A stretch of 64,000 nucleotides of DNA from Planctomycetota bacterium (lineage in GTDB: Bacteria; Planctomycetota; B15-G4). The stretch covers positions 2,583,574 to 2,647,573 of the forward strand of contig CBDFJQ010000002.1 of NCBI GenBank assembly GCA_965248575.1, read 5' to 3'. The first letter of the stretch is position 1. Every line of letters starts with the position of its first letter. The position numbers and the translations under genes were made by a program. Shown one piece after another: positions 6,274 through 43,200 of this stretch. Below the pieces are notes generated by a model. The model ran no database searches and was not told the DNA's origin. It was given only the letters and a program-made list of their open reading frames with translations.

Positions 6274-7791
6274 ATGACCTTTCGCTGTCTGCTCGCCATC
6301 GCGCTGCTCTTGCCTGGCTGCCTCAGCACCTCGGGGACCTCCTTGCCCAAATGGGTGGATGCGCCGGCAAGCCATCCTCGCTGCGACCGGCGAGAGGCAC
6401 TGTGCGCCGTGGGCATCGCCTCGGGCTCGGGCCAGGCCGCCCGGGAGCTCGCACAGCAGCGCGCCCTGGAGCAGATCGTGTCGTCGGTGCTCGTGTCCGT
6501 GCAGAGCACCATCGACCTGGACTCCACGAGCCGCCGTTCCAACGACGACATCTTCTGGACAGATGAGGTACGGGAGCGCATCCGGGTCAGTTCCCAGCAG
6601 GAGGACCTGCCCGGACTGGAAGTCGTGGAACGCTGGGTGCATCCCACGCGGCGCGAGGTGTACGTGCTGGTCAAGGTGCCCCGGGAACTCCTGCTCGACC
6701 GCTGGATGCCCCGTGTCGGTCAGGCCCTGGCTGAAGCCGAGACCTATCTGCTGACGGCCGACGAACTGAGCATGCACAGCCCCGGCCGGGCCATCCACAA
6801 CACGCTCGAGGCCTACCGGGTCGTGGCCGGCGCCTACGGAGACGCCATCAAATCCAAGGTCGTCGCGCGGGAATCCAGGCAGCGGGGCCAAGCCGATCAG
6901 AGCTTCGCGCGGACGTCCCAACTTATGGCAGAGACATCCGCTCGCCTGGCTCAGCTCATCGGCGGCGTGCGTCTGGTCAAGTTGGCCGGCGACGGGCAGG
7001 CGGGTGTCGTCCGCGGCAGCCTGCCCCAAGCCCTGCGCGTGCGCCTGGAGTACCAAGACCTCAAGGGCGAGGTGCAACCACTGCAGGACGTTCCACTCCG
7101 ATTCGCCTCGCGCATCGAGGGCGCCGCGGATGTGCTGACGGATTCCTCCACCACGGATGCCGCAGGGGAAGCCAGTTGCCGCGTCGTGAACCTGGGCCCC
7201 ACCGGCCTGGCGAACAACGAGATCCTGGTCCAGCCGGGCTTCAGCACGGTGGCTCCGGACCTGGCAGACAAGCACGTCCCCGCCGCGAGCTTCGTCTACC
7301 ACCTCCCCACCGCCGCCGGGACCACGGTGGTGCTCGCCGTCCGTGAAATCTACGAAGGCTCGCAGCTCTCTCCTTCTGTCCTGCAGGGCGAGCTGGCCTC
7401 GCACCTCTCGGGCTTTGGCTTCAGCGTCCGGGGCCAGGAGCCCAGTGCCTCCATGCCTTCCATCGATCTCGAAACCAGCACCGACCCACAGGCCCTGCGC
7501 CAGGCCCTGGGCCCGGACGCGGACGTCCTCTTGCGCGGCCGGGCTGAGGCCCGCCACAGCAGCCTCGAGAATCAACTGCACTGGTTCCGGGCCTACGCTC
7601 AGCTTGAGTTGGTCAACATCGACTCTGGCCGCGTCACGGCCCTCAGCACCGAAGAAGTCAAAGACGCCCACCGCGAGCACTCGCAGAGCGGCGCCATCCG
7701 GGCCCTCAAGCTGCTCAGAGGCCCGCTCTTCGCCGAGCTCGAACGGACTCTCGTCGCCGACTTCGTTCCCAGCTCTTCGCTTGAGCCGTAG
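6274..7791 (+). CDS. Lipoprotein with N-terminal LPP20-like domain and long C-terminal extension
   Basis: The start codon was re-placed at MTFRCLLAIALLLPGC (lipobox LLPGC), so the ORF-track start at 6070 is an upstream in-frame extension. The N-terminal domain CAVGIASGSG...ARELAQQRALEQIVSSV...VYVLVKVPRELL resembles LPP20. The gene is divergent from the 5353..6003 LPP20 gene. Confidence 0.6.
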   Translation: MTFRCLLAIALLLPGCLSTSGTSLPKWVDAPASHPRCDRREALCAVGIASGSGQAARELAQQRALEQIVSSVLVSVQSTIDLDSTSRRSNDDIFWTDEVRERIRVSSQQEDLPGLEVVERWVHPTRREVYVLVKVPRELLLDRWMPRVGQALAEAETYLLTADELSMHSPGRAIHNTLEAYRVVAGAYGDAIKSKVVARESRQRGQADQSFARTSQLMAETSARLAQLIGGVRLVKLAGDGQAGVVRGSLPQALRVRLEYQDLKGEVQPLQDVPLRFASRIEGAADVLTDSSTTDAAGEASCRVVNLGPTGLANNEILVQPGFSTVAPDLADKHVPAASFVYHLPTAAGTTVVLAVREIYEGSQLSPSVLQGELASHLSGFGFSVRGQEPSASMPSIDLETSTDPQALRQALGPDADVLLRGRAEARHSSLENQLHWFRAYAQLELVNIDSGRVTALSTEEVKDAHREHSQSGAIRALKLLRGPLFAELERTLVADFVPSSSLEP

Positions 7792-7824
7792 TCCGCTCCT
7801 CGCACGACGCACGGGGCCGGGGAT

Positions 7825-7915
7825 CGCTGAGCCTGGCCACTAGATCTGCTGCTCAGACAACGAGGCAAACAGACGCCTCGAGAACTCGCCTCAGATCTAG
7901 TGGCCAGGCTCAGCG
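7825..7915. repeat. Perfect palindromic element A: 24-bp stem (7825-7848 / 7892-7915) around a 43-nt centre that itself contains a 6-bp hairpin (cgaggc-aaacagac-gcctcg)
   Basis: Read directly from the sequence. gctgagcctggccactagatctg is at 7826-7848 and its exact reverse complement cagatctagtggccaggctcagc is at 7892-7914. The flanking C/G pair extends the stem to 24 bp. Confidence 0.9.
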
Positions 7916-7919
7916 CTCC

Positions 7920-8072
7920 CCTCCTCGGTGGAGGAGGTGGACACGATCGGGGCGTGGGGGGAGACGAGTCGACACCTCTTTACGAGTGTGGTGGCGAGTC
8001 GACAGCCGGATCGATTCACCCACTCCCCTGAAAGGAGCAGCACAGTGCCCTCGGAAAGATCCACCGAGGAGG
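7920..8072. repeat. Inner 13-bp inverted repeat (cctcctcggtgga at 7920-7932 / tccaccgaggagg at 8060-8072), nested between elements A and B
   Basis: An exact reverse-complement match seen in the sequence. The intervening segment also holds a 10-bp direct repeat cgagtcgaca, present twice. Confidence 0.8.
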
Positions 8073-33400: not shown

Positions 33401-34219
33401 CTATTCCCGACGCAGGCTGAGACCGCCCGAGGAGCGCAGCTCGATCAGATAGCTGCTTCCTGGACGCAGCTCGACGAAGGGTGCCTCGCCGTGGATGGCG
33501 CGCACACCGATGGCAGCCGCCTGCTCCGGGTCATTGGCATAATCCCAGAATCGTAACCAGAGGCGGCTGACGAGCTCCGGTGCCTGGTCGTCGGAGTAGG
33601 GCTGCGGCCGTTCCCCCACGCGATCGAGGGGGAAACCCTGCTCGGGGCTTTGCGTCTCGGAGAACAAACGCCGGAAGAAACAGATGGAGGAACCGCGCCA
33701 GACGTCCCCGCGCTCCACATAGTCATCGCTGAACTTGATGACCAGGGATTCGATGTAGGCCACCTTGCCCGGAAGCGTGTATTCCACGCTTTCGCCCAAC
33801 AGATTGCCTTCGGGGTCCAGCTCCTCAAAGCGCACGCGTGTTTCATATTGACCTCCGGGCAACTGTCGCTGCTCCAGGACCGTCAAGCGTGCAATGCGAT
33901 GGTCGATCTTGAGCAGATGCAGAGCGGTGTCGAGTTCCTCGATCTGGGCGTCACGCTCCTCCACATCGACCACCAGCTTCACGATGCGCCGATCCCTTTG
34001 CGCGACATCTTGCTTGAGGCCGCCGATGTGCTCGTCCTGTTCTTGCACCTTTCCGTTGAGATCCTTGATGAGCGAATCGCGCTCAGCAACTTCCGCGCGG
34101 TGCCCATCCAGGAGATTGCCGGCCGTGTTGTAGCCCACCCAACCCAGGCCCACCAAAGCGGCCAGGACCACGGTCCTCAGGAGATAGTTCACTCGTCCGA
34201 CTCCCTTGGCTTGTGTGCT
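33401..34219 (-). CDS. Membrane-anchored coiled-coil protein, hypothetical
   Basis: The start was placed at MSTQAKGVGRVNYLLRTVVLAALVGLGWVGY (a TM anchor). A heptad-like region follows (IKDLNGKVQEQDEHIGGLKQDVAQRDRRIVKLVVDVEERDAQIEELD). The Arg/Lys-rich N-terminal extension in the 325-aa ORF overlaps the upstream gene and was judged non-coding. Confidence 0.5.
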   Translation of the reverse strand, partial: STQAKGVGRVNYLLRTVVLAALVGLGWVGYNTAGNLLDGHRAEVAERDSLIKDLNGKVQEQDEHIGGLKQDVAQRDRRIVKLVVDVEERDAQIEELDTALHLLKIDHRIARLTVLEQRQLPGGQYETRVRFEELDPEGNLLGESVEYTLPGKVAYIESLVIKFSDDYVERGDVWRGSSICFFRRLFSETQSPEQGFPLDRVGERPQPYSDDQAPELVSRLWLRFWDYANDPEQAAAIGVRAIHGEAPFVELRPGSSYLIELRSSGGLSLRRE

Positions 34220-34244
34220 CATCTCGATGTTCCCGGGGCCGCGC

Positions 34245-36167
34245 TCAGCCGTCATCCTCGGTGCCGTCCTCGGCAGCCGCTTCGGCTTCCGCTGCAGCCT
34301 TGGCGGCCTTCTTCTTGGCTTTTTTCTTCTTCTTTTCCTCGTCGTCCTTGTCGTCGCCGAAAAGGCCTCCCAAGGCATCGCCGATCTTGTCGTCCAGCTC
34401 GTCCTTCACCTCGTCGAGCTTCTCGTCCTTCTTGGCCTCCAACTCGGCCTTCTTCTTGTCGACCTCGGCGGTCAGCTCTGCCTTGACTCCAGCCAACAGG
34501 GCGTCGGCCATGGCGTCGTCATCGAAGCTGATGCGCGGGTTGTCCAGAGGGCCTCGCAGGCCAAAGGGCAGGGTCAGCCCGTCCAGCTTCCGGGCACCGG
34601 AAGGCAGGGCGACGGTGACACCGTGCAGGGTGACGTCCAGGGGCAGATCCAGCTCACCGACACGGCCGCCGATCCACGTCCCGTTCAACGAGAAGTCCAA
34701 GGTCCCCTTCGAGAGCGCTGGTTTGCCGTCCACCTGCAGCGAACCAGCCACCGTCTCGGAGGCCACACCCTTCAGGATGAACTTCAGCGTGTTGTCGGCG
34801 GGCTCTGCAGAAGCCCCGCCGAGGCCCACATCCACATCCAGACGCCCGCTCTGGGCCACGATGCTCATGCGAGCCGGTTGGTCCACCAGGGAGGGTTGCG
34901 TGGACACATTCGCAAGGCGGATGTCGAGCAACTCGCCCGGCATCTGCTCACTTCGCACGCCCCCCGCGATGATCTCACGGATCAACAAGGTGGGCGCATC
35001 CGTGAGCAGGTGGCGCGCACTGACGGCGGCATAGCCCTTGGCGGCCACCTCACGAGCCAGCCGCTCTTCGAAACTCTCTTCCGTTTCTTGCTCAACGCCC
35101 TCACCCGAGCTCAGGGTGTCGAGCCACTCCCGCACCTGCGCCAGACGATTCTTCCAGAGCTCGGCGTCGGCCAGGTAGTCCTCGAGGCTCTTGGAGTCAC
35201 CCTGAGCGACCTCCTCGGCCGTCGGACCCAGGTCGGGCTCCGGGGCCGGGCCCACGAGGCTTCCCGGCGAGGTACGGCGGGCGCCTGTGGCTCCGTCCAC
35301 GATCACGAGACGGTCGATGCTCAGCTTGCGACGCAGCAGGTCTTCCGTCCCCAGGTCCGCCTCCAGGCTGAGCGCGCGAAACAGATCCGTGCCGAGGGCA
35401 TTGGGGTCGGCCATGGCCAGGCCGGAAACGCTCAGTGTTCCGGCCGCGAGGTCCAGGTCCACCGCGTCCACATCCACGGTAGCGCCATTCCACGTCTCGA
35501 GACCGCTCTTGGCCGCGCCACCCAGGAAGGGACCACTCATCAGGGTCGGCGCAAGGAAGAGGACGCCGAGCAAGACCACCACGACCACCACACCGGCCAG
35601 GCGAATGGGCGAACTGTGTTTCTGGGACGCAACATCCGAGTAGGTCTTCTTGCCGTGGCCGCTGCCCACCAGGACCCAGAGCAAGGAACGCGACCACCAG
35701 GTGGTCGAGACCTTGGTGAACTTCTCGCTCTTCTCTTCCACCTTCGCCATGCGAGTTCGGAAGGCCGACAAGGTCTTGCTCAGGAAGCCGCCCACCACAA
35801 GGCCGGTCACGAGGCCGAGCACGAGGCCGCCCGTCGTGGCGTAGTACTCCAGACCGAACCACGCCAGGACCGGAGCGTTGACGGCACTCCTGAACAGCCC
35901 CTCCGAGGGACCTTCGAGCAGCACACGCCCGATGGAGAAGGACACGGGCATGGCCAGCAAGGCCAACAGCTTGGCGAAGCCCGCCACCAGCAGGCACAAA
36001 CCGATGTTCGCGTTCAGCACCAGCAGCAAGAGGACGTAGGCCACCAAGAGGCCGCCGGAGGTCGAGAAGCTGGGGACGAAGCCAATCAGCGCCCCCAACA
36101 AACACGCCAGGAAGACCTGCAGTGGGGTGGCCTTGCCTCGCAGCAGGCCGACGATGTCGCGAATCAT
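34245..36167 (-). CDS. Membrane protein: DUF2062/TIGR03546-like N-terminal domain fused to a large extracytoplasmic domain; C-terminal poly-Lys/Glu tail
   Basis: The start was placed at MIRDIVGLLRGKATPLQVFLACLLGALIGFVP, which is DUF2062-like (my recollection of the family, not verified). The ~450-aa body is of unknown function. The C-terminus is ...DDKDDEEKKKKKAKKKAAKAAAEAEAAAEDGTEDDG. The antisense 764-aa ORF was rejected. Confidence 0.5.
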   Translation of the reverse strand: MIRDIVGLLRGKATPLQVFLACLLGALIGFVPSFSTSGGLLVAYVLLLLVLNANIGLCLLVAGFAKLLALLAMPVSFSIGRVLLEGPSEGLFRSAVNAPVLAWFGLEYYATTGGLVLGLVTGLVVGGFLSKTLSAFRTRMAKVEEKSEKFTKVSTTWWSRSLLWVLVGSGHGKKTYSDVASQKHSSPIRLAGVVVVVVLLGVLFLAPTLMSGPFLGGAAKSGLETWNGATVDVDAVDLDLAAGTLSVSGLAMADPNALGTDLFRALSLEADLGTEDLLRRKLSIDRLVIVDGATGARRTSPGSLVGPAPEPDLGPTAEEVAQGDSKSLEDYLADAELWKNRLAQVREWLDTLSSGEGVEQETEESFEERLAREVAAKGYAAVSARHLLTDAPTLLIREIIAGGVRSEQMPGELLDIRLANVSTQPSLVDQPARMSIVAQSGRLDVDVGLGGASAEPADNTLKFILKGVASETVAGSLQVDGKPALSKGTLDFSLNGTWIGGRVGELDLPLDVTLHGVTVALPSGARKLDGLTLPFGLRGPLDNPRISFDDDAMADALLAGVKAELTAEVDKKKAELEAKKDEKLDEVKDELDDKIGDALGGLFGDDKDDEEKKKKKAKKKAAKAAAEAEAAAEDGTEDDG

Positions 36168-36222
36168 CCGAAGAGTCCTCGTGGATGGGGATGCAAGGAA
36201 CAGACCGGCGCCATGGGATCGC

Positions 36223-37053
36223 TCACGGATCCAGCCTCGCCCAGAATAGGATGCGCTGGAACGGAAAGAAGAACGGCTTGGAATCGGCCAACACCTGGGC
36301 GAGTTCCCGGCGATAGACCCCCAGGTACTCCTGATAGAGCTCTGCCGGCATGCGGCGCTCATAATCGGTCAGGGTGGTGCCTTTCAGCCACTCCAGCACG
36401 GCCTCGCGATCGGGTAGCTCGTGGGCATAGACACGGGCCATCACGTGCTGATCGGCGAATCCCAGCTCATGCAGGGCATGGGCATAGTCCGTGGCGCTGA
36501 GGACGGGGGTGCGGCGCACGTAGCCCCCCAGGGCCTGCGCGAAGGTCGCCTTTCGCGCCACCTCCGCAGCCACCGTCTGGGAAGGGTGCTCATGGTTCGC
36601 CGGCACCTGCACCGCCAACTGCCCACCGGGCGCAAGACAGCCTTTGAGCTGCCGGAGCAAGGCCGGGTGGTCCTCCACCCAGTGCAGGGCTGCGTTTGAG
36701 AAGACGAGGTCCCAGCTGCCGTCTGGCTTGAGCGCAGCCAGGTCGCCTTGCTGGAAACTCAGCGAGGCTGATCCGGCCCGTTGCTCGGCGCAGCGCTCCA
36801 ACATCGCGGGCGATCGATCCACACCCAAGGTCTCCCGAGCGCGCAACTGCTCGGCTAGGCGACGCGTCAGCGCCCCCGTGCCGCACCCGAGGTCCAGCAC
36901 ACGCATCTGCGGTTCGGGCACCACGAGCGCCATCAGGTCGAAGAAGGGCTGGCTGCGCTCCCGCTGGAAGCGGTCGTACTGCGCGGGATTCCACGGGTCG
37001 CGCCCAGGATCGTGCCCAGGATCGCACGGGGAAGGACTCGTCGATTCGCTCAT
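36223..37053 (-). CDS. tam: Trans-aconitate 2-methyltransferase-like SAM methyltransferase
   Basis: 276 aa. RVLDLGCGTGALTRRLAEQ is motif I. DLVFSNAALHWVEDHPALLRQL...GGQLAVQVP is the typical Tam arrangement. Confidence 0.8.
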   Translation of the reverse strand: MSESTSPSPCDPGHDPGRDPWNPAQYDRFQRERSQPFFDLMALVVPEPQMRVLDLGCGTGALTRRLAEQLRARETLGVDRSPAMLERCAEQRAGSASLSFQQGDLAALKPDGSWDLVFSNAALHWVEDHPALLRQLKGCLAPGGQLAVQVPANHEHPSQTVAAEVARKATFAQALGGYVRRTPVLSATDYAHALHELGFADQHVMARVYAHELPDREAVLEWLKGTTLTDYERRMPAELYQEYLGVYRRELAQVLADSKPFFFPFQRILFWARLDP

Positions 37054-37198
37054 GGGCTCGTTCCAACTTGTGCCACGGTCTCCATTCCCCGCCTTCGACG
37101 TTCCTCACCGTATACTGCACGGCTCGCCCGCCCGAGCATCCAGCGGCCCATCCTGGACGAAACCGCCATGGGGCCAGGGCCAGTCATCGAGTCCGGAC

Positions 37199-37933
37199 AT
37201 GCGCATCCTGCCCTCCTCAACCCAACTCATGCGAGCGCTCGGAGTTCTCCTGTGCAGCCTCGCCTTTCTTTCCGTCCTGGGCGGCAGCACCTGTATCTGG
37301 AGCGCAGACGATGACGACAGCCAATGCTATGACGACGACGATGACAACGATGCGTTCTGCGATGATGACGACGACTTCAACGCCACGGCAGGGGGAGCCT
37401 CGCTCTCGCCCGACTTCCTGAGCCTTCAAGAAGGCTTGCTCGACCTGGGTCCCGGCGTTCCCTTGGACTCCCGAGCCACGTCCATCCGCCGCTCCAGCAG
37501 CGAGCCCGCCGGAAGTACGGCACGTCTCACCAACTATGTGCTCGAGCTGGAGAGCCGCCCGGGCCGACACCCTGTGGCGCGGGTGCGCGACATCGTCGGT
37601 TTGGCCGTGGGCGCCGAGACGTCATCGCTCGCCAAGCACCCGCTCACCCTGATGGGCGCCGAGGACTTTCGTTTGTTCAGCGCTGACGTGCTGGCCGCCA
37701 ACGACGACCTGCTCGGACTGCCTGAGGGGGCCGGTGAGCTTCGCCCCCGCAGCGTGCACTTTCTCGATCAGCTGGTGGCCGTGGTGTTCGAACAGCTTCC
37801 CGGCGACGCAGCCTCCGAAGCCCAGGTCATCTTCGCCTTCGATCTCCTCGGCCGGCTGCTCCTGATCGAGAACCGGACGATCCTGCCCCCTGGAATCGAG
37901 GCGACGGTGCCTGACGAGCTGCTGCGCCCGTAG
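37199..37933 (+). CDS. Secreted protein with Cys-punctuated poly-Asp tracts (possible Ca2+/metal-binding), hypothetical
   Basis: The start was placed at MRILPSSTQLMRALGVLLCSLAFLSVLGGS (signal peptide). The motif is STCIWSADDDDSQCYDDDDDNDAFCDDDDDFN, followed by a ~170-aa uncharacterised domain. Its stop TAG overlaps the GTG start of the HTTM gene. Confidence 0.55.
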   Translation: MRILPSSTQLMRALGVLLCSLAFLSVLGGSTCIWSADDDDSQCYDDDDDNDAFCDDDDDFNATAGGASLSPDFLSLQEGLLDLGPGVPLDSRATSIRRSSSEPAGSTARLTNYVLELESRPGRHPVARVRDIVGLAVGAETSSLAKHPLTLMGAEDFRLFSADVLAANDDLLGLPEGAGELRPRSVHFLDQLVAVVFEQLPGDAASEAQVIFAFDLLGRLLLIENRTILPPGIEATVPDELLRP

Positions 37934-39321
37934 TGAGCACCACGCGGCGGCTCTTCGCGCCGACCCCTGCCAGCTCCCTGGCGTGCTTCCGTATCGCCTT
38001 CGGCCTGATCTTGTGTTGGGAAGTCGGGCGCTACTTCCAACACGGCTGGATCTCCGAGTACTTCGTCGAGCCCCGCTTCCACTTCCACTACGCCGGCTTC
38101 GGCTGGGTGGCGCCCCTGCCAGCGGCGGGTCTGCGAGGTCTCTTCGTGGGGCTCGGTGTGTGCGCGGCAGGGATCGCCACCGGCTATCGCCTGCGCCTAG
38201 CAGCCAGCCTCTTCTGCCTCGGCTTCAGCTACGTGTTCCTGCTGGAGAAGGCGCGCTACCTCAACCACTTCTACCTGGTGATCCTGCTGTGCGGCTTGCT
38301 GGCAGTCGCTCCGGCGGATCGCGTCTGGTCCATGTCGGCCTGGCGACGGCGCAAGGGACGCCAACGGGCGGGCTCGGCGGTTGAGGGCAGCGTGCCGGCC
38401 TGGAGCCTGGCCCTGCTACGAACGCAGTTCGGCCTCGTCTACCTCTTTGCGGGCCTCGCCAAGCTCAACGAAGATTGGCTTCGCGCCCGGCCCCTCACCG
38501 ACTGGCTCGGAAGCCGCCAGGAGCACGCCGTCCTGGGCCCTCTGCTGCAGCAGGACTGGTCCCCCTGGCTCTTCAGCTACGGCGGCTTGGCCCTCGATCT
38601 AGCGGCCTGGCCCTTGCTCATCTGGAAGCGCACGCGCGGGTTCGCCTTCCTGCTCACGTGCGCCTTCCACCTCACCAATGCGTCCCTGTTCGGCATCGGC
38701 ATCTTTCCCTGGACGATGATCGCCGGGACAGCGCTCTTCCTGGACCCGGACGGGCCACGACGCCTGCTCCGACGCTGGACGCAGCCCTCGTCGCCCCCCC
38801 GCTCGAAGCCGCTGTCGAATGCGCTGTCCGAAGCCCCGTCCGAAGCTCCCCCCGGGGCTCGCCAGCGGCTTGTTCTGTGGGCCCTGGGCATCTACCTGGG
38901 ACTCCAGGTCCTGATCCCGTTGCGGCACTTTGCCTATCCAGGCCCCGTGAGTTGGACCGAAGAAGGCCACAGCTTCTCGTGGCACATGAAGCTCCGCAGC
39001 AAGCGCAGCGAGACGAGCTTCCGGCTGCGCAATGGGAACACCGGTGAGGAGTGGCTCGTGAATCCGGCGGCCGAGCTCACCGACTGGCAGACGCGCAAGA
39101 TGAGCGGTCGCCCCGACATGATCCTCCAGTATGGCCAGCATCTGGGGCGGCGCCTGGCTGCAGAGTCGGGCGACCCCATCGAGGTGCGCGTGGCATCTTC
39201 CGTCTCCCTCAACTCGCGACCGCCGCAAGCCCTCATCGACCCCGCGCGGGACATCATGGACCTTCACTGGGGATGGTCCGCCGCTCCCTGGATCGTCCCG
39301 CTGAGAGAGACGTCGCCCTAG
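37933..39321 (+). CDS. HTTM-domain membrane protein (vitamin K-dependent gamma-carboxylase-like)
   Basis: 462 aa. The N-terminus FRIAFGLILCWEVGRYFQHGW...YLNHFYLVILL... follows the characteristic HTTM pattern, and the protein is polytopic. It has a GTG start overlapping the upstream stop. Confidence 0.65.
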   Translation: MSTTRRLFAPTPASSLACFRIAFGLILCWEVGRYFQHGWISEYFVEPRFHFHYAGFGWVAPLPAAGLRGLFVGLGVCAAGIATGYRLRLAASLFCLGFSYVFLLEKARYLNHFYLVILLCGLLAVAPADRVWSMSAWRRRKGRQRAGSAVEGSVPAWSLALLRTQFGLVYLFAGLAKLNEDWLRARPLTDWLGSRQEHAVLGPLLQQDWSPWLFSYGGLALDLAAWPLLIWKRTRGFAFLLTCAFHLTNASLFGIGIFPWTMIAGTALFLDPDGPRRLLRRWTQPSSPPRSKPLSNALSEAPSEAPPGARQRLVLWALGIYLGLQVLIPLRHFAYPGPVSWTEEGHSFSWHMKLRSKRSETSFRLRNGNTGEEWLVNPAAELTDWQTRKMSGRPDMILQYGQHLGRRLAAESGDPIEVRVASSVSLNSRPPQALIDPARDIMDLHWGWSAAPWIVPLRETSP

Positions 39322-39427
39322 CTTCGAGGTTTCAGCCTTGAGATAGCGTGGGCGATGCGGTCCTTTATGAAGCTCGTTCCGGCGCGCTGGGGAAGTCACG
39401 CGTTGCAACTGTCGCCGTCCTGCTTGC

Positions 39428-41875
39428 ATGCCTCCTGATCCGCTGTTTCATCGCGTCCTCCTCTCCATGGTCCTCTTGGCCACGGGCCCCCTCGCCAGTG
39501 GCCCCGCCGGGCTCGAGGTGCGCCCTGCAAACGAGACCGGGGCCTCCCCGCTCAACTCCGTGCTCATCAACGAGCTGGACGCGGATCAGAGCGGCGTCGA
39601 CATGCTGGAGTTCATCGAGCTGCTCGCCCCAGCCCAGGGATGGGACCTCTCCGCTTGGGTGGTGGTGCTCTACAACGGGGCTGCCCCAGACGACGAGGCC
39701 TACGACGCCATCGCGCTGACAGGCCAGTTGGCAGGGGAAGACGGGCTGTTCGTGTTGGGTTCGACGGGCGTCGAGAGCGTCGATCTGGTGGCCTTCAGCA
39801 GCAACGGCATCCAGAACGGACCTGATGCCGTGGCTCTCTGGCACGCTCCGGGGCTGAAGGCGTCTGACTTCCTGGGCACCAACCCGTCCACGCCCCCCGC
39901 GGGGGCGCGCCTCGCCGACGCCCTGGTGCACTCCACGGGCGACGCTCCGGACCAGGCCCTGCTCGACGCCCTGACCCCCGGCGCCCTGATGCGCGACGAA
40001 AGCGCGGGGCTCGGGCCCAGCGAGCGCTCCCTGCAACGGCGCCCAGATGGCGGAGCGCCCTTCGACACGGCGAGCTTCATCCCCTCGGCTCCAAGCCCCG
40101 GGCGTCGAAACGGAACCCTGCATCATGTGGCCATTCATGCCATCCAGGGCCCCGGCCATCGTTCCCCCTACGAAGGTTCGTTCGTGGCTGACGTCGAAGG
40201 GGTCGTCACCGCCGTGCGCGACGACCGCTTCCACCTACAGGCCTTGCCCGGCTCAGAGGACGAAGACCCTCACACCTCCGAGGCGCTGCTCGTCTTGCCG
40301 GGCACGGCAGATCAACCTGAGGTAGGTGACCACATCCTGCTGAGCGGTTGGGTCGAGGAGCATTCACCGGGGGGAAGTCCGGGCAACCTGAGCACCACGC
40401 GCCTCATCTTGCTGGGAGAGTGGGTGCTCGTGGACTCGGGGCTCGTCCTGCCGGCGCCCGTGGTGCTGGGCGAGGGAGGCCACTCGCTGCCGCGGCAGAT
40501 CATCGACAACGACACACGGGGCGGCCAGGTGTCCAACACCGCCACCCTCTTCGACCCTGAACAGGACGGCCTCGACAGCTTCGAGTCCTTGGAAGGCATG
40601 CGCGTCCAAGTCCGGGAGGCCTATGCCATCGGGGCGACAACGTCCTTCGGAGAGCTGCCTGTGCTGGCCGATGGCGGCCGCCTGGCGACGGGTCTTTCCG
40701 TGCGTGGAGCCCTCTTGCGCAGCGCAGAGGACGCCAACCCTGAACGCATCCTGGTGGACGATGAGTTGACGCCGACACCCCAGGCCGAGCTCGGAGACCG
40801 CTTCTCTAGCCCTCTTGTCGGTGTCCTGGATTACAGCTTCGGGAACCCCAAGCTGCTGCTCACCGAGACGGCCCAAGTCGTTCCAGGCAGTCGGCCGGCA
40901 GAACATCTCAGCAACACGGCCGGCCTGCGGGTCGCCAGCCTGAACGTGCAGAACCTCTCGCCTCAGAGCAGCGGCGAGCGCATCGCCGAGCTGGCCAAGA
41001 CCCTGGTGTTCGGGCTGAACGCCCCCGACCTGGTGGCCTTGCAGGAAGTGCAGGACGGCAGCGGCCCCCTCAATGATGGGGTCGTGTCTGGCCTTCCCAG
41101 CTTGATGCTGCTGCAGGGTGCGATTCGTTCCCTGGGGGGCCCACGTTACATCGCCGTGGAGATTGCTCCGCTCGACGGCATGGATGGCGGCCAGCCCGGC
41201 GGGAACATCCGCGTGGCTTTCCTTTATCGCGCCGACAGCGACCTGCGTCTCGTGGCACGAGCTGGCGGCGATGCCACGACCCCCACCTTGGTGCAGGTCG
41301 GGGCGGATGGGTCGCCGCAGCTCGCTCCCAGCCCTGGGCGGATCGCCCCCGAGGACCCGGCTTGGTTGAACAGTCGCAAGCCGCTGACGGCGGAGTTCGA
41401 GTGGCGTGGGCAAGCGCTGTTCATCGTGAACGTGCACCTGTCTTCCAAGCTGGGTGACACGCCACTTTTCGGTGCCTGGCAGCCGCCCGTCCTGGCCTCG
41501 GAAGCCAAGCGACTGCCGCAAGCGCGGGTCGTGCGTGACTTCGTCGCGAAGATCCTGGCGGCCGATCCTCAAGCGGCAGTGCTCGTCCTGGGCGACTGCA
41601 ACGACTTCGAGTGGTCCCCGGCCCTTGCGGAATTCCAGGCGGGGGGGCTGCTGCACAACCTCACGGACGGCGTGCCCCAGGGCGAGCGGGGCAGCTACAT
41701 CTACCAGGGCAATACGCAGACGCTCGACCACGCCTTGGCCAGCTCCGCCCTCCTGCCGGCCCTGCTGGATTACCGCATCGTGCACCGGCACGCGGGGCGG
41801 CTCGAGGCACCCTCGGACCACGACCCCCTGCTGCTCGACCTCTCCCCAACCGACCTGCCCAACGGCTTGCGCTGA
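39428..41875 (+). CDS. ExeM/NucH-family extracellular nuclease (lamin-tail domain + endonuclease/exonuclease/phosphatase domain)
   Basis: 815 aa with a signal peptide. The LTD motif is SVLINELDADQSGVDMLEFIELL. The C-terminal EEP fold includes LRVASLNVQNL...DLVALQEVQD... and ...SDHDPLLLDL. Confidence 0.75.
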   Translation: MPPDPLFHRVLLSMVLLATGPLASGPAGLEVRPANETGASPLNSVLINELDADQSGVDMLEFIELLAPAQGWDLSAWVVVLYNGAAPDDEAYDAIALTGQLAGEDGLFVLGSTGVESVDLVAFSSNGIQNGPDAVALWHAPGLKASDFLGTNPSTPPAGARLADALVHSTGDAPDQALLDALTPGALMRDESAGLGPSERSLQRRPDGGAPFDTASFIPSAPSPGRRNGTLHHVAIHAIQGPGHRSPYEGSFVADVEGVVTAVRDDRFHLQALPGSEDEDPHTSEALLVLPGTADQPEVGDHILLSGWVEEHSPGGSPGNLSTTRLILLGEWVLVDSGLVLPAPVVLGEGGHSLPRQIIDNDTRGGQVSNTATLFDPEQDGLDSFESLEGMRVQVREAYAIGATTSFGELPVLADGGRLATGLSVRGALLRSAEDANPERILVDDELTPTPQAELGDRFSSPLVGVLDYSFGNPKLLLTETAQVVPGSRPAEHLSNTAGLRVASLNVQNLSPQSSGERIAELAKTLVFGLNAPDLVALQEVQDGSGPLNDGVVSGLPSLMLLQGAIRSLGGPRYIAVEIAPLDGMDGGQPGGNIRVAFLYRADSDLRLVARAGGDATTPTLVQVGADGSPQLAPSPGRIAPEDPAWLNSRKPLTAEFEWRGQALFIVNVHLSSKLGDTPLFGAWQPPVLASEAKRLPQARVVRDFVAKILAADPQAAVLVLGDCNDFEWSPALAEFQAGGLLHNLTDGVPQGERGSYIYQGNTQTLDHALASSALLPALLDYRIVHRHAGRLEAPSDHDPLLLDLSPTDLPNGLR

Positions 41876-42036
41876 CGGCAGGAGCCGGCCCGCGGCCTGA
41901 CCGGAGCGGCCATCCAGAAGCTGGCGGCCTCCGAACGGGCTTCCCACGCCAGCCCCCACGACATCCCTGGGGTGATCCGCAAAGCACTCATGGGCTAGAC
42001 TCCCGGATTCGACCTTCCACCATCCGGAGTGACCCC

Positions 42037-43200
42037 ATGGTCCCCGCCCGACGCTTTGCCCTCGGCCTGTTCTCCCTGCTGGCCCTCACCCTCCCCACCC
42101 TGGCGCAGGACGGCCTCGCCGACGAGGCCCAGGCTGCTGCCGACAAGGTCACGAAAGCGACCGAGTGGACTGAAGGCCGCTACGCCTATGTCGTCGTGTC
42201 CACCTCCGCTGGCGACATGACCCTCGAGCTTGACCATGACAAGGCTCCCAAGACCGTCGAGAACTTCCTCAAGTACGTCGACGAGGACTTCTACAGCGGC
42301 ACGATCTTCCACCGCGTCATCGCTGGCTTCATGTGCCAGGGCGGAGGCTTCACCACGGACTACCAACGCAAGGGCACCAACCCTCCCGTGGAAAACGAGG
42401 CCGACAACGGCCTGAACAACACCTCCGGCACCATCGCCATGGCTCGCGTCGGGCCCCACACCGCGACGAGCCAGTTCTTCCTCAACACCGCCGACAACAA
42501 GATGCTCGACCACACGGCGCCCACCCCCACCGGCTGGGGCTACGCCGTGTTCGGGCAAGTCATCGAGGGTCTCGAGACCCTGGAGGCCATCCGCACCACG
42601 CCCGTGGAAGTGGACCCCCGAGTCGGCCGCGAGCAAGCAGCCCCCGTCACGCAGGTCGTCATCAACAAGGTGACCCGCGCGGACCCCCAGATGTGTGCGG
42701 GCGCCATCGTCGCAGTGCGCAAGCGGGAAGCGGTCGCCCAGGCCCAGGTCGCCGAGCTGGAGGCCGCCAAGGTCGTGCGCGAGGCAGCTCTCGCGAAGCT
42801 CGTGGAGAAGTACGGCAGCGAAGGCATCGCCCTGGTCGCCCAGAAGGGCCACGACGTCTCCAAGGGTTCCACGTCAAGCACCGGGCTCTGGTCTCTCGAC
42901 ACCGTGCCTGGCACCGGCGCCCAGCCCACGGCCTCTGACACGGTCACCGTGCACTACACGGGCTGGTTCACCGACGGTGGCGTCTTTGACTCCTCCGTTG
43001 AGCGGGGTGAGCCCACCAGCTTCCCTCTCAGTGGTGTCATCAAGGGCTGGACCGAGGGTGTGGCCGGCATGAAGGTCGGCGGCAAGCGCTTCCTGGTCAT
43101 CCCCCACGAGCTGGCCTACGGCGAGCGCGGCTACCCCGGCGTGATCCCGGAGCGGGCGACCCTGGTGTTCGAGATCGAGCTGCTGAAGATCGGCGGCTGA
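42037..43200 (+). CDS. Dual-family peptidyl-prolyl cis-trans isomerase: cyclophilin-type domain fused to FKBP-type domain, secreted
   Basis: The start was placed at MVPARRFALGLFSLLALTLPTLA (signal peptide). The cyclophilin core is FHRVIAGFMCQGGGF...GTIAMAR...SQFFL. The C-terminal FKBP domain is WTEGVAGMKVGGKRFLVIPHELAYGERGYPGVIPERATLVFEIELLKI. Confidence 0.8.
   Translation: MVPARRFALGLFSLLALTLPTLAQDGLADEAQAAADKVTKATEWTEGRYAYVVVSTSAGDMTLELDHDKAPKTVENFLKYVDEDFYSGTIFHRVIAGFMCQGGGFTTDYQRKGTNPPVENEADNGLNNTSGTIAMARVGPHTATSQFFLNTADNKMLDHTAPTPTGWGYAVFGQVIEGLETLEAIRTTPVEVDPRVGREQAAPVTQVVINKVTRADPQMCAGAIVAVRKREAVAQAQVAELEAAKVVREAALAKLVEKYGSEGIALVAQKGHDVSKGSTSSTGLWSLDTVPGTGAQPTASDTVTVHYTGWFTDGGVFDSSVERGEPTSFPLSGVIKGWTEGVAGMKVGGKRFLVIPHELAYGERGYPGVIPERATLVFEIELLKIGG

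What the first reader, a model, noticed from the sequence alone, without database searches (positions are those of the whole stretch)
37199..39321. Translationally coupled pair: secreted Cys-punctuated poly-Asp protein + HTTM (vitamin-K-dependent gamma-carboxylase-like) membrane protein
The TAG stop of the upstream gene overlaps the GTG start of the HTTM gene (tAGtg at 37931-37935), which implies co-expression. The upstream product has a signal peptide and the unusual tract C-IWSA-DDDD-SQ-C-Y-DDDDDND-AF-C-DDDDD-F, followed by a 170-aa domain I cannot place. Bacterial HTTM proteins have no established substrate; this is my understanding of the literature, not something the sequence shows. The eukaryotic homolog modifies acidic residues (Glu to Gla) in secreted calcium-binding proteins. 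A co-translated secreted, extremely acidic, Cys-framed partner is an obvious candidate substrate or cofactor. An extracellular ExeM/NucH nuclease gene follows immediately downstream.
Basis: partly seen in the sequence, partly recalled or inferred. Interest (0 to 1): 0.65.

Follow-up and report, generated by a model that had tools for sequence, protein, structure and literature searches.

The report
Poly-aspartate protein paired with carboxylase homologue
A bacterial relative of the human vitamin-K-dependent carboxylase is encoded next to an exported protein carrying an almost pure aspartate tract, and the pairing is conserved, which makes that tract the first concrete candidate protein target for these long-unexplained bacterial enzymes.

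Summary
ORF A (37199-37933) encodes a signal peptide, an invariant Cys and the tract C-IWSA-DDDD-SQ-C-Y-DDDDDND-AF-C-DDDDD-F. Its TAG stop overlaps the GTG start of ORF B (37933-39321).

ORF B is a clear vitamin-K-dependent gamma-carboxylase (VKGC) homologue:
- HTTM 1e-82 and VKGC lumenal domain 2e-42.
- Model TM-score 0.8 to human GGCX.
- The catalytic Lys, His, Asp, Trp and CO2-pocket Phe are kept.
- Clamp B and the C-terminal domain (CTD) are absent.

ORF A belongs to an unannotated family (138 cluster representatives) with a variable N-terminal tract that is poly-Asp, His-rich or Cys-rich.

- All 11 poly-Asp members with readable context sit beside a VKGC-like gene. One lineage has the gene convergent rather than co-directional.
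- All 4 members without poly-Asp lack it.
- Tracts are 49% Asp and 1% Glu.
- Unrelated secreted poly-Asp proteins flank other VKGC-like genes.
- The one characterised bacterial orthologue, MloH, carboxylates an aspartyl residue.

Best reading (0.5): an enzyme-target pair in which periplasmic Asp is carboxylated to make a metal-chelating tract. No biochemistry was done. About 85% of VKGC-like loci show no poly-Asp neighbour, and the downstream nuclease is not part of the module. I rate this a new variant of a known kind, interest 0.75.

The parts
37199..37933 (+). ORF A: exported poly-Asp/Cys protein, 244 aa. Member of an unannotated family.
   Evidence: Translation. No Pfam or NCBIfam hit. 13 homologues in the 5.8-billion-protein database. 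138 cluster representatives by profile search.
37199..37291 (+). Signal peptide (aa 1-31): basic N-region, hydrophobic core, then small residues (LGGST) before Cys32.
   Evidence: Read from the sequence. Modelled as a helix at residues 7-28. In the family, positions -3/-2/-1 are G/S/A, G/S/A and S/T/G.
37292..37294 (+). Cys32 codon (TGT). Invariant Cys at or near the mature N-terminus. Possibly the lipidated Cys of a non-canonical lipobox.
   Evidence: Invariant column C32. Nearly invariant in 40 diverse members. It is kept when the other two Cys are lost in P0005, P0007 and P0008.
37292..37378 (+). Poly-Asp tract framed by three Cys (aa 32-60): CIWSADDDDSQCYDDDDDNDAFCDDDDDF.
   Evidence: Predicted disordered, pLDDT below 50. 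Family tract composition is D 49.1%, C 8.2%, E 1.1%. Three Cys is the modal count, 65 of 111 members. Codons are mixed GAC/GAT, so this is not a DNA repeat.
37379..37516 (+). Poorly conserved linker (aa 61-106).
   Evidence: Variable and gapped in alignment A1. Low to medium pLDDT.
37517..37888 (+). Folded alpha/beta domain (aa ~107-230), topology beta-beta-alpha-beta-beta-beta-beta. Resembles a protease-propeptide domain.
   Evidence: pLDDT 80-92. Conserved motif N-x-x-L-L-G-L-P-x-x-A-G. Homologous domains sit at the N-terminus of M36-like metalloproteases. Only sub-threshold BamE hits in PDB sequences. No significant Foldseek hit in the PDB.
37931..37935 (+). Stop/start overlap tAGtg (TAG of ORF A, GTG of ORF B).
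   Evidence: Read directly. Homologous junctions overlap by 4 nt in L001, L002, L004 and L021.
37933..39321 (+). ORF B: vitamin-K-dependent gamma-carboxylase homologue, 462 aa. Nine predicted TM helices plus a periplasmic lumenal domain.
   Evidence: Pfam. PDB sequence match to human GGCX residues 55-505, E 3e-46. Model pLDDT 89.6, pTM 0.90. Foldseek hits only GGCX, TM-score 0.80-0.83.
37954..38751 (+). HTTM domain (aa 8-273).
   Evidence: PF05090, 1.2e-82, profile positions 1-258 of 259.
38266..38268 (+). His112 codon, equivalent to human GGCX His160.
   Evidence: Alignment. Invariant in A2 and A6. Role of His160 taken from PMC12647623.
38461..38463 (+). Lys177 codon, equivalent to human GGCX Lys218, the general base that deprotonates vitamin K hydroquinone.
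   Evidence: Alignment. Invariant in A2 and A6. Role taken from PMC12647623.
38863..39309 (+). VKGC lumenal domain (aa 311-459), corresponding to clamp A. Carries the WTEEGHSFSWHMK loop in place of the human Glu-binding loop WTNGLYGYSWDMM.
   Evidence: PF22777, 1.8e-42. Alignments. Domain definitions from PMC12647623. The loop at residues 348-352 is the only structured-region segment with pLDDT below 50.

Best explanation
ORF A and ORF B form a conserved two-gene module encoding an enzyme and its protein target.

[quoted passage not shown] ORF A is exported by its signal peptide. It probably stays tethered to the membrane through its invariant N-terminal Cys. That would place the Asp-only tract, which begins directly after that Cys, at the membrane surface next to the enzyme's active site.

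The proposed reaction follows the human enzyme. ORF B oxygenates reduced menaquinone using Lys177. The strong base this generates removes a proton from Asp side chains, and CO2 held in the Phe258 pocket is added. The product would be carboxy-aspartate, a malonate-like side chain analogous to Gla. The modified tract would be a far stronger chelator of Ca2+ or other metal ions.

Relatives of ORF A carry His-rich or Cys-rich tracts instead. Those bind metal without modification, which would explain why they are not paired with the enzyme.

Shown: gene pair and overlap; family identity and conserved catalytic residues of ORF B; conserved adjacency; co-variation of poly-Asp with the enzyme gene; exclusion of Glu from the tract.

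Inferred: physical contact, the chemistry (carboxylation, and at which carbon), lipid anchoring, the Cys2-Cys3 disulfide, and metal binding.
For: 1. ORF B is a bona fide VKGC homologue. It matches HTTM and the lumenal domain. It aligns to human GGCX residues 55-505 at 3e-46. Its model superposes on GGCX structures with TM-score 0.80-0.83, and GGCX accounts for all 16 significant PDB hits.

2. The residues that PMC12647623 assigns to quinol deprotonation and CO2 handling are kept. The equivalents are Lys218=K177, Trp223=W182, Asp263=D222, His160=H112, Phe299=F258 and Met401=M352. The first five are invariant in both alignments, of 15 and of 43 homologues; M352 is invariant among the 43 only.

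3. Adjacency is conserved across 29-60% identity and otherwise unrelated flanks: window, L001, L002, L004, L021, L023, L024, L107, L059 and L106. In L025/L026 the gene is still adjacent although inverted to a convergent orientation.

4. The enzyme gene tracks the tract type.
- 11 of 11 poly-Asp members have the enzyme gene next door.
- 0 of 4 members without poly-Asp do: P0008, which lacks the tract, His-rich P0074 and P0083, and Cys-rich P0131.
- My Fisher exact calculation gives p about 7e-4, not corrected for phylogeny.
- A profile scan of all loci found no non-poly-Asp member beside an HTTM gene.

5. The tract is Asp-specific rather than merely acidic. It is 49.1% D and 1.1% E, against 7.9% E in the rest of the same proteins. 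Runs are bracketed by Cys, Phe, His or Tyr.

6. Unrelated secreted proteins with poly-Asp runs flank other VKGC-like genes.
- A DDDD-(SGK)n-DDDD-Cys family lies convergent and 126-169 nt away in L006-L009 and L016. It is unrelated to ORF A, hhalign probability 0.5%.
- A 955-aa secreted protein in L011 ends in GDDDDDD.
- A prepilin-like protein in L093 ends in D6-H-D7-E.
- A small secreted Asp-rich protein lies in L068.

7. Precedent. MloH, the only bacterial VKGC orthologue with a reported reaction, carboxylates an aspartyl residue.

8. The substrate loop is more basic than in human GGCX: Tyr395->His346, Asp400->His351, Met402->Lys353, His440->Arg393. Arg406->Lys357 and Arg436->Lys389 keep their positive charge.
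Against: - No biochemical or structural evidence of contact exists.
- Among 95 VKGC-like loci found independently of ORF A, only 10 have a strong poly-Asp ORF within 2 kb. The density near the gene (0.043 per kb) is not clearly above that further away (0.028 per kb). Poly-Asp neighbours are therefore a minority pattern, and their enrichment over a true genomic background was not established.
- The 11-versus-4 contrast involves related lineages and some short contigs.
- Tyr395, which positions the substrate in human GGCX, is not conserved.
- ORF B lacks clamp B and the CTD, so half of the human propeptide exosite is missing.
- From my own knowledge (Rishavy et al. 2005, not retrieved here), the Leptospira orthologue showed epoxidase but no carboxylase activity.
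- Interchange of Asp with His or Cys across the family shows the tract's role is probably metal binding. Metal binding does not in itself require modification.
Confidence: 0.5

Rival explanations
1. ORF A is an accessory subunit or docking partner of ORF B rather than its substrate. Its folded C-terminal domain binds the lumenal domain and stands in for the missing clamp B/CTD. The real substrate is encoded elsewhere. The poly-Asp tract serves as a cation reservoir, a pseudo-substrate or a regulator.
For: - ORF B ends at the equivalent of human residue 505, so it lacks clamp B and the CTD.
- ORF A has a confidently folded domain.
- Start/stop overlap suits stoichiometric co-production.
- Precedent: an AlphaFold 3 model of DUF5819 in complex with an HTTM protein resembles the whole GGCX structure.
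- Precedent: SdpA is needed together with SdpB.
Against: - Family members with the same folded domain but no poly-Asp tract are not next to HTTM genes.
- Unrelated neighbours of other VKGC-like genes share only the poly-Asp feature.
- ORF A shows no sequence or fold similarity to GGCX.
Confidence: 0.2
2. ORF B acts on the tract but does not carboxylate it. It would use quinone-linked base or redox chemistry for another change, such as Asp epimerisation or oxidative formation of the Cys2-Cys3 disulfide. Alternatively it works only as a quinol epoxidase.
For: - Cys residues frame the tract, and three is the modal count.
- Cys2 and Cys3 are lost together in P0005, P0007 and P0008, which suggests they form a pair.
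- The substrate loop differs from human GGCX (Tyr395->His).
- The Leptospira orthologue is reported to have epoxidase activity but no carboxylase activity (my own knowledge, not retrieved).
Against: - P0007 lacks Cys2 and Cys3, keeps its Asp runs, and is still followed by the HTTM gene.
- The CO2-pocket Phe and the Met401 equivalent are conserved.
- The reaction reported for MloH is carboxylation of an aspartyl residue.
Confidence: 0.15
3. The two genes are only co-regulated. Both would serve an envelope or metal-ion function: ORF A as a Ca2+/metal-binding lipoprotein and ORF B as a quinone-dependent membrane enzyme. Neither acts on the other.
For: - The D/H/C interchange in the tract points to metal binding as ORF A's own function.
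- Another branch of the VKGC-like family sits with imelysin and DUF4856 lipoproteins, which are themselves periplasmic proteins.
- Most VKGC-like loci have no poly-Asp neighbour.
Against: - Adjacency persists across unrelated flanks and through an inversion.
- The gene is lost exactly where poly-Asp is lost.
- Glu is excluded from the tract. A generic acidic metal binder would not need that.
Confidence: 0.1
4. The adjacency and the acidic tract are coincidental: a low-complexity region in a hypothetical gene that happens to lie next to an HTTM gene.
For: - Single DDDD runs do turn up in spurious reading frames of GC-rich DNA.
Against: - ORF A is a conserved family with a folded domain.
- The tract is conserved in composition and Cys framework.
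- Adjacency is found in 11 of 11 poly-Asp contexts.
Confidence: 0.02

Closest known systems
[quoted passage not shown]
   Same: - ORF B shares the fold: TM-score 0.80-0.83, 28% identity.
- It keeps the quinol-deprotonating Lys, its Trp and Asp partners, His160, the CO2-pocket Phe, and positively charged residues at the positions that hold the acidic substrate or product.
- As in the human system, the candidate target is a secreted protein with a dense acidic tract and a nearby disulfide-type Cys pair, located a short distance from an anchoring element.
   Different: - The acidic residue is Asp, and Glu is excluded.
- ORF A has no propeptide and no Gla-domain match.
- ORF B lacks clamp B and the CTD, which in human GGCX form half of the propeptide cleft and the EBD2 site.
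- Tyr395 is replaced by His.
MloH, the VKDC orthologue of the Streptomyces malonomycin pathway (Law et al. 2018, cited)
   Same: A bacterial member of the same enzyme family whose reported substrate residue is aspartyl, not glutamyl.
   Different: - MloH acts on a hybrid polyketide/non-ribosomal-peptide intermediate inside a biosynthetic gene cluster.
- Its HTTM region is fused to a DUF5819-like region.
- In this window there is no such cluster, and the candidate target is a ribosomal, Sec-exported protein.
- MloH was not compared directly with ORF B here.
HTTM proteins with small partner proteins: SdpB with SdpA/SdpC in Bacillus, DUF5819 with HTTM-DCC proteins, and HTTM genes in linaridin clusters
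   Same: A polytopic HTTM membrane protein is encoded beside a secreted or membrane-tethered partner or precursor whose maturation depends on it.
   Different: - ORF B gives no NCBIfam hit, so it does not match the SdpB-family model, which I recall as TIGR04033 (the accession is from my own memory).
- It carries the VKGC lumenal domain.
- ORF A is unrelated to SdpA, SdpC and DUF5819, with no Pfam hit.
- No toxin or peptide-natural-product (RiPP) context is present.
Protease propeptide-type domains (FTP / PepSY) and the lipoprotein BamE
   Same: - The C-terminal domain of ORF A is homologous to the N-terminal domain of M36-like secreted metalloproteases, where it occupies the propeptide position.
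- It has an alpha-plus-beta-sheet topology.
- Its only PDB sequence hits are sub-threshold matches to BamE.
   Different: - No Pfam FTP or PepSY match in ORF A or in 40 relatives.
- No significant structural match in the PDB.
- Equating the domain with FTP rests on my recollection of the FTP consensus.

Membership tests
HTTM / vitamin-K-dependent carboxylase family (ORF B) | Matches Pfam PF05090 (HTTM) above the gathering score | tested here: met
   277.8 bits against a cut-off of 27.7, E 1.2e-82, covering profile positions 1-258 of 259.
HTTM / vitamin-K-dependent carboxylase family (ORF B) | VKGC lumenal domain (PF22777) following the membrane domain | tested here: met
   145.3 bits against a cut-off of 27.7, E 1.8e-42, residues 311-459.
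HTTM / vitamin-K-dependent carboxylase family (ORF B) | Same fold as solved GGCX structures | tested here: met
   Model pLDDT 89.6. Foldseek TM-score 0.80-0.83 to 9wfc, 9bvq, 9l24 and others. All 16 hits with E <= 0.001 are GGCX.
HTTM / vitamin-K-dependent carboxylase family (ORF B) | Catalytic residues: Lys218 (base), Trp223, Asp263, His160, Phe299 (CO2 pocket), Met401 | tested here: met
   K177, W182, D222, H112, F258 and M352 align to these positions. The first five are invariant in both A2 and A6; M352 is invariant in A6 only. Roles are taken from PMC12647623.
HTTM / vitamin-K-dependent carboxylase family (ORF B) | Tyr395, which stacks on the residue preceding the substrate Glu | tested here: not met
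   Replaced by His346. The loop reads WTEEGHSFSWHMK, against the human WTNGLYGYSWDMM.
HTTM / vitamin-K-dependent carboxylase family (ORF B) | Bipartite propeptide exosite (clamp A plus clamp B) and the C-terminal domain | tested here: not met
   The alignment to human GGCX ends at residue 505 of 758. Clamp B (including Arg513) and the CTD (603-758) have no counterpart. The target-normalised TM-score is only 0.54-0.60.
HTTM / vitamin-K-dependent carboxylase family (ORF B) | Quinol- and O2-dependent epoxidase / carboxylase activity | not testable with these tools
   Requires an enzyme assay.
Vitamin-K-dependent (Gla) substrate proteins (ORF A) | Propeptide carrying the carboxylase recognition site, plus a Glu-rich Gla domain (I recall PF00594; accession from my own memory) | tested here: not met
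   No Pfam hit. The tract follows the signal peptide directly with no intervening propeptide. The acidic residues are Asp, and Glu is 1.1% of family tracts.
Bacterial lipoproteins (ORF A) | Lipobox [LVI][ASTVI][GAS]-C at the end of the signal peptide | tested here: inconclusive
   The Cys is invariant and preceded by small residues. However, -3 is Gly rather than Leu, and -1 is Thr in the window protein. Family-wide, -1 is S 46, T 25, G 19 and other residues 21. No dedicated predictor was available.
FTP / PepSY propeptide-like domains (ORF A C-terminal domain) | Match to the Pfam FTP model (I recall PF07504; accession from my own memory) or the PepSY model (PF03413) | tested here: not met
   No hit in ORF A at E <= 0.01 or in 40 relatives at E <= 1. 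Homology to the N-terminal domains of M36-like proteases is nevertheless significant: P0092 at 3e-17 and P0102 at 6.5e-15.
SdpB-type HTTM proteins | Match to the NCBIfam SdpB-family model, with SdpA/SdpC-type neighbours | tested here: not met
   ORF B has no NCBIfam hit at E <= 0.01. The neighbours are unrelated.
MloH-type aspartyl carboxylases | Location in a PKS/NRPS cluster and a fused DUF5819-like region | tested here: not met
   The neighbours are a methyltransferase, a nuclease, a prolyl isomerase and a peptidase. ORF B has the VKGC lumenal domain.
ExeM/NucH extracellular nucleases (downstream gene 39428-41875) | NCBIfam NF033681 above its cut-off | tested here: not met
   91.6 bits against a cut-off of 300. 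PF03372 (Exo_endo_phos) is above its cut-off at 45.6 against 24.5. The gene is an EEP-family enzyme, related to ExeM/NucH only distantly.

The most novel reading that the evidence does not exclude
Bacteria have a menaquinone-dependent protein carboxylase that converts runs of aspartate in exported proteins into runs of carboxy-aspartate. This would be a new post-translational modification system and the first protein substrates for bacterial VKGC homologues. The enzyme would recognise poly-Asp tracts in several unrelated secreted proteins: the ORF A lipoprotein family, the DDDD-(SGK)n family, pilin-like proteins and others. The products would be mineral- or metal-binding surfaces.
Probability: 0.3. 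Interest if true: 0.9.

Novelty: new variant of a known kind. Interest (0 to 1): 0.75.

Why it matters
[quoted passage not shown] At least 2977 protein clusters match at E <= 1e-20. Yet the only reaction I found reported for one is on a small-molecule antibiotic intermediate. What the rest do is an open question.

This locus, and the family-wide pattern behind it, turn that question into a direct experiment: one enzyme, one co-encoded protein, one predicted mass shift on a defined 29-residue tract.

If the prediction holds, three things follow:
- Vitamin-K-type carboxylation would be extended from Glu to Asp, and from animals to bacterial envelope proteins.
- There would be a natural route to polycarboxylate metal-binding peptides.
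- There would be a minimal carboxylase lacking the propeptide clamp, useful for mechanistic work.

If the prediction fails, the strict coupling of poly-Asp to this enzyme still needs an explanation.

Tried and rejected

2. ORF A as a trans-supplied copy of the GGCX clamp B or CTD. Rejected at the level of homology, since there is no sequence or fold match to GGCX. A functional stand-in role is kept as a rival explanation.

3. Complex prediction with a linker-fused A+B paired alignment.

4. The nuclease as part of the system. Rejected. It is present only in L001, separated by another gene, and absent from L002, L004, L021, L024 and L025.

5. The divergent trans-aconitate-methyltransferase-like gene as part of the system. 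Rejected. It is found only in close relatives, and it is still present in L022, where the HTTM gene is gone.

6. General enrichment of poly-Asp ORFs near VKGC-like genes. The near-versus-far comparison was not decisive: 11 hits in 254 kb against 6 in 213 kb. No independent genomic background was available.

7. A relationship between the DDDD-(SGK)n neighbour family and ORF A. Rejected, hhalign probability 0.5%.

8. Promoter and terminator scan of 36900-39600. Uninformative: no sigma-70-like site, and one terminator-like hit, which is within chance expectation.

9. Literature. I found no paper in the library linking HTTM/VKGC homologues to poly-Asp proteins or to carboxy-aspartate in proteins.


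Full report
**1. What is in the window**

ORF A (37199-37933, +) encodes 244 residues.
- It begins with a signal peptide.
- Cys32 follows, preceded by small residues.
- The tract is CIWSADDDDSQCYDDDDDNDAFCDDDDDF.
- A linker and a C-terminal region complete the protein.

The TAG stop of ORF A (37931-37933) shares one base with the GTG start of ORF B (37933-39321, +, 462 aa). The N-terminus of ORF B aligns with those of its homologues, which supports that start.

No sigma-70-like promoter lies between the genes, and no convincing terminator follows them. That scan is weak evidence either way.

The surrounding genes are:
- a divergent trans-aconitate-methyltransferase-like gene (36223-37053, -);
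- a TIGR03545/TIGR03546-like membrane protein;
- an M3 peptidase upstream;
- an endonuclease/exonuclease/phosphatase-family gene downstream (39428-41875), with only a weak ExeM/NucH match;
- a cyclophilin-FKBP fusion, an aminotransferase and a sulfatase further downstream.

Labelled homologues of both genes come mainly from Planctomycetota metagenome-assembled genomes. That is the likely source phylum, by inference only.

**2. ORF B is a genuine carboxylase homologue, but a truncated one**

- It matches HTTM at 1.2e-82 and the VKGC lumenal domain at 1.8e-42.
- It aligns to human GGCX residues 55-505 at 3e-46.
- A model built from 43 homologues has pLDDT 89.6 and pTM 0.90.
- Foldseek finds only GGCX structures, with query TM-score 0.80-0.83 and 28% identity.

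A 2025 structural paper assigns the catalytic roles of the human residues (PMC12647623). Using it, ORF B keeps:
- the general base Lys218 (K177) and its stacking Trp223 (W182);
- Asp263 (D222) and His160 (H112);
- the CO2-stacking Phe299 (F258) and Met401 (M352).

K177, W182, D222, H112 and F258 are invariant in both alignments, of 15 and of 43 homologues. M352 is invariant among the 43 only.

Two things differ from the human enzyme.
- The substrate loop is WTEEGHSFSWHMK instead of WTNGLYGYSWDMM. This gives Tyr395->His346, Asp400->His351 and Met402->Lys353. His440 becomes Arg393. Arg406 and Arg436 remain basic as Lys357 and Lys389. The pocket is therefore more positively charged.
- The protein stops at the equivalent of human residue 505. 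It has the membrane domain, the cap and clamp A. It lacks clamp B (the jelly-roll that forms the other wall of the propeptide cleft) and the C-terminal domain.

Propeptide docking as seen in the human enzyme therefore cannot occur in ORF B alone.

**3. ORF A belongs to a sizeable unannotated family with a modular N-terminus**

A word-indexed search found 13 relatives. A full profile search found 138 cluster representatives at E <= 1e-3 and 96 at E <= 1e-10. None has a Pfam or NCBIfam assignment.

The model of ORF A shows a disordered tract and a confident alpha/beta domain at residues ~107-230. Its topology is beta-beta-alpha-beta-beta-beta-beta.

That domain also occurs at the N-terminus of large secreted M36-like metalloproteases, in the position of a propeptide domain. 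Its conserved motif resembles the fungalysin/thermolysin propeptide consensus as I recall it. Pfam does not confirm this, and the only PDB sequence hits are sub-threshold matches to BamE.

After the invariant Cys, the N-terminal tract comes in three flavours:
- poly-Asp, usually with three Cys (67 of 111 scorable members);
- His/Asp-rich (21 members);
- a seven-Cys motif (11 members).

Asp, His and Cys are the classical metal ligands, so metal binding is the likely common function of the tract. This is inference.

One protein, P0143, carries the same N-terminal module on a different domain, DUF4382.

In P0005, P0007 and P0008 the second and third Cys are lost together while the first is kept. 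This suggests that Cys1 has a separate role, as a lipid anchor or N-terminal residue, and that Cys2-Cys3 form a pair (inference).

**4. The coupling between poly-Asp and the enzyme gene**

Every poly-Asp member whose surroundings could be read is next to an HTTM + VKGC-lumenal gene.
- These are the window, L001, L002, L004, L021, L023, L024 and L107.
- L059 and L106 are two more divergent pairs, found by searching with the enzyme rather than with ORF A.
- Flanking genes differ completely between lineages.
- In L025/L026 the enzyme gene is adjacent but on the opposite strand. Adjacency therefore survives rearrangement.

All four members without a poly-Asp tract lack the enzyme gene.
- P0008 has lost the tract. 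Its locus, L022, is otherwise syntenic with the window but lacks ORF B.
- P0074 is His-rich.
- P0083 is His-rich, and no HTTM gene lies within 4 kb on either side. It is instead overlapped by a glycerophosphodiester phosphodiesterase gene.
- P0131 is Cys-rich.

P0007 keeps its Asp runs but has no Cys2/Cys3, and it still has the enzyme gene. The correlate is therefore Asp, not Cys.

A profile scan of all 114 loci found no non-poly-Asp family member beside an HTTM gene.

The 11:0 against 0:4 split gives a Fisher exact p of about 7e-4 by my own calculation. The lineages are related, so this overstates independence.

**5. The tract is Asp-specific**

In 66 poly-Asp members the tract is 49.1% Asp, 8.2% Cys, 5.5% Phe and only 1.1% Glu. 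The remainder of the same proteins is 6.2% Asp and 7.9% Glu.

Asp runs are most often preceded by Cys, Phe, His or Tyr, and followed by Phe, Gly, Cys or His.

A tract selected merely for negative charge would mix Asp and Glu. Exclusion of Glu points to a constraint on side-chain length, as expected for an enzyme site or a precise coordination geometry.

The codons are mixed GAC and GAT, so the tract is not a slippage repeat.

**6. Other poly-Asp neighbours of VKGC-like genes**

Searches seeded with ORF B returned 15 genome loci and 80 metagenome loci. Several unrelated secreted proteins with Asp runs lie next to the enzyme gene.
- In one Planctomycetota clade (L006-L009, L016) a family lies convergent and 126-169 nt downstream. 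It has a signal peptide, one to four DDDD runs (two or more in four of the five loci) separated by SGK- or Gly/Ser-rich spacers, and a Cys-rich segment. It is unrelated to ORF A.
- In L011 a 955-residue secreted protein ends in GDDDDDD.
- In L093 a prepilin-like protein ends in D6-H-D7-E.
- In L068 a small secreted Asp-rich protein lies 260 nt downstream.
- Further Asp-rich secreted proteins lie 2.5-3.9 kb away in L018, L019, L045, L047 and L065.

This recurrence of the tract without the ORF A domain is the main argument that the tract, not the folded domain, is what matters to the enzyme.

It must not be over-read. Only 10 of 95 loci have a strong poly-Asp ORF within 2 kb. The near and far densities (0.043 and 0.028 per kb) do not differ convincingly, and I had no independent genomic background.

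A different branch of the enzyme family has a loop closer to the human one (G-[YFM]-R-[FW]-[SA]-W-R-V-M). It sits with imelysin and DUF4856 lipoproteins instead.

**7. Mechanism proposed, and what is inferred**

I propose that ORF B modifies the Asp tract of ORF A in the periplasm by the vitamin-K carboxylase mechanism.
- Lys177 deprotonates reduced menaquinone.
- Oxygenation produces a strong base.
- An Asp side-chain carbon is deprotonated.
- CO2 from the Phe258 pocket is added.

The membrane tether at Cys32 and the position of the tract directly after it would place the substrate at the membrane-embedded active site. This would substitute for the propeptide-clamp docking that ORF B cannot perform. 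The folded domain or the linker may add docking.

The product would be a strong chelator. His-rich and Cys-rich relatives would reach the same end without an enzyme.

Every step beyond gene content, residue conservation and co-occurrence is inference. The only chemical precedent is MloH, reported to carboxylate an aspartyl residue.

**8. Rivals**

- ORF A could be a subunit that completes the truncated enzyme (0.2).
- ORF B could do different chemistry on the tract, or act only as an epoxidase (0.15).
- The genes could be co-regulated without direct interaction (0.1).
- Chance is effectively excluded (0.02).

The evidence for and against each rival is listed in its own entry.

**9. Comparison with what is known, and novelty**

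ORF B is a member of the HTTM/VKGC family by sequence, fold and catalytic residues. It fails two features of the animal enzyme: Tyr395, and clamp B plus the CTD.

ORF A is not a Gla protein. It has no propeptide and no Gla domain, and its acidic residues are Asp rather than Glu.

The pair is not an Sdp-type, linaridin-type or MloH-type system.

I found no publication in the searchable library that links these enzymes to poly-Asp proteins. The library is incomplete, so prior description elsewhere cannot be excluded.

I class the finding as a new variant of a known kind. It combines a known enzyme family with a previously unrecognised, genetically coupled protein partner and a predicted change of target residue.

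**10. Verdict**

- Interest: 0.75.
- The enzyme-target reading: probability 0.5.
- The specific claim of protein Asp carboxylation as a new bacterial modification: probability about 0.3, and of high interest if true.

Noticed in passing
L006:5617-6501 (-); also L007:5593-6450, L008:5618-6214, L009:5603-6562 and 7336-7956, L016:5633-6694 and 6994-7833: A second, unrelated family of secreted proteins lies convergent to VKGC-like genes in a Planctomycetota clade. Each has a signal peptide, one to four DDDD runs (two or more in four of the five loci) separated by (SGK)n or Gly/Ser-rich spacers, a Cys-rich segment (CGGHCDPTTPFCFADENDCPCGN...) and a domain of about 150 residues. The (SGK)n repeat scores as a collagen repeat in Pfam.
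   Followed up: partly
L093:1442-2083 (-); L047:1010-2077 (-): Prepilin-type proteins (N-terminal methylation motif) with long Asp runs lie near VKGC-like genes. The L093 protein ends in GGGGGGDDDDDDHDDDDDDDE and overlaps the end of the enzyme gene. The L047 protein has a 12-Asp run and lies 2.5 kb away.
   Followed up: partly
L011:1663-4527 (-): A 955-residue secreted protein with a metalloprotease-like HEFGH motif and a NIDO domain. It ends in GHGHGHHWGDDDDDD and lies convergent, 70 nt from a VKGC-like gene in a Thermoanaerobaculia genome.
   Followed up: partly
L010:1577-3963 (+); L012:1244-3987; L079, L101, L104 upstream of the match: A different branch of the VKGC-like family sits in an apparent operon with DUF4856 and imelysin (Peptidase_M75) lipoproteins. 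In three of these loci (L010, L101, L104) a further gene, homologous among the three and encoding a protein of 475-810 residues, lies immediately downstream. Its substrate loop is closer to the human sequence (G-[YFM]-R-[FW]-[SA]-W-R-V-M).
   Followed up: partly
L111:4001-5376 (+): The His-rich member of the ORF A family (P0083) overlaps by 4 nt with a glycerophosphodiester phosphodiesterase gene instead of an HTTM gene. Different tract flavours of the family may be coupled to different enzymes.
   Followed up: no
proteins P0092, P0102, P0116, P0118, P0146, P0148, P0149 (not in the window): The folded domain of ORF A recurs at the N-terminus of 730-1320-residue secreted proteins. These carry HExxH motifs, a weak Peptidase_M36 match and PKD domains, and the ORF A-like domain sits in the position of a protease propeptide.
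   Followed up: partly
protein P0143 (not in the window): The same N-terminal module (signal peptide, then C-HYHSDDDHH-C-RDDDHFDDDD-C) is attached to a DUF4382/DUF5666 protein instead of the ORF A domain. The tract therefore behaves as a portable module. Its genomic context could not be checked.
   Followed up: no
window 36223-37053 (-): A trans-aconitate-2-methyltransferase-like gene (NF010703, 2.7e-54, below its cut-off) lies divergent from ORF A. It is conserved there in close relatives (L001, L022, L023, L024, L107). It remains in L022, where the carboxylase gene is absent, and is missing from distant pairs. This looks like inherited synteny rather than a functional link.
   Followed up: yes
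window 34245-36362 (-): A 705-residue membrane protein combines TIGR03546-like and TIGR03545-like regions. Its C-terminal tail is strongly charged (DDKDDEEKKKKKAKKKAAKAAAEAEAAAEDGTEDDG). Homologues in L001 and L021 have similar tails.
   Followed up: no
window 33401-34378 (-): A 325-residue ORF with an extremely basic N-terminus (RKRRRKKPRRRPPRLQRKPKRLPR), followed by a membrane segment and a coiled-coil region. It has no family assignment, and the true start codon is uncertain.
   Followed up: no
window 41998-43197 (+): A secreted fusion of a cyclophilin-type and an FKBP-type prolyl isomerase. The same gene follows the ORF A homologue directly in L022.
   Followed up: no
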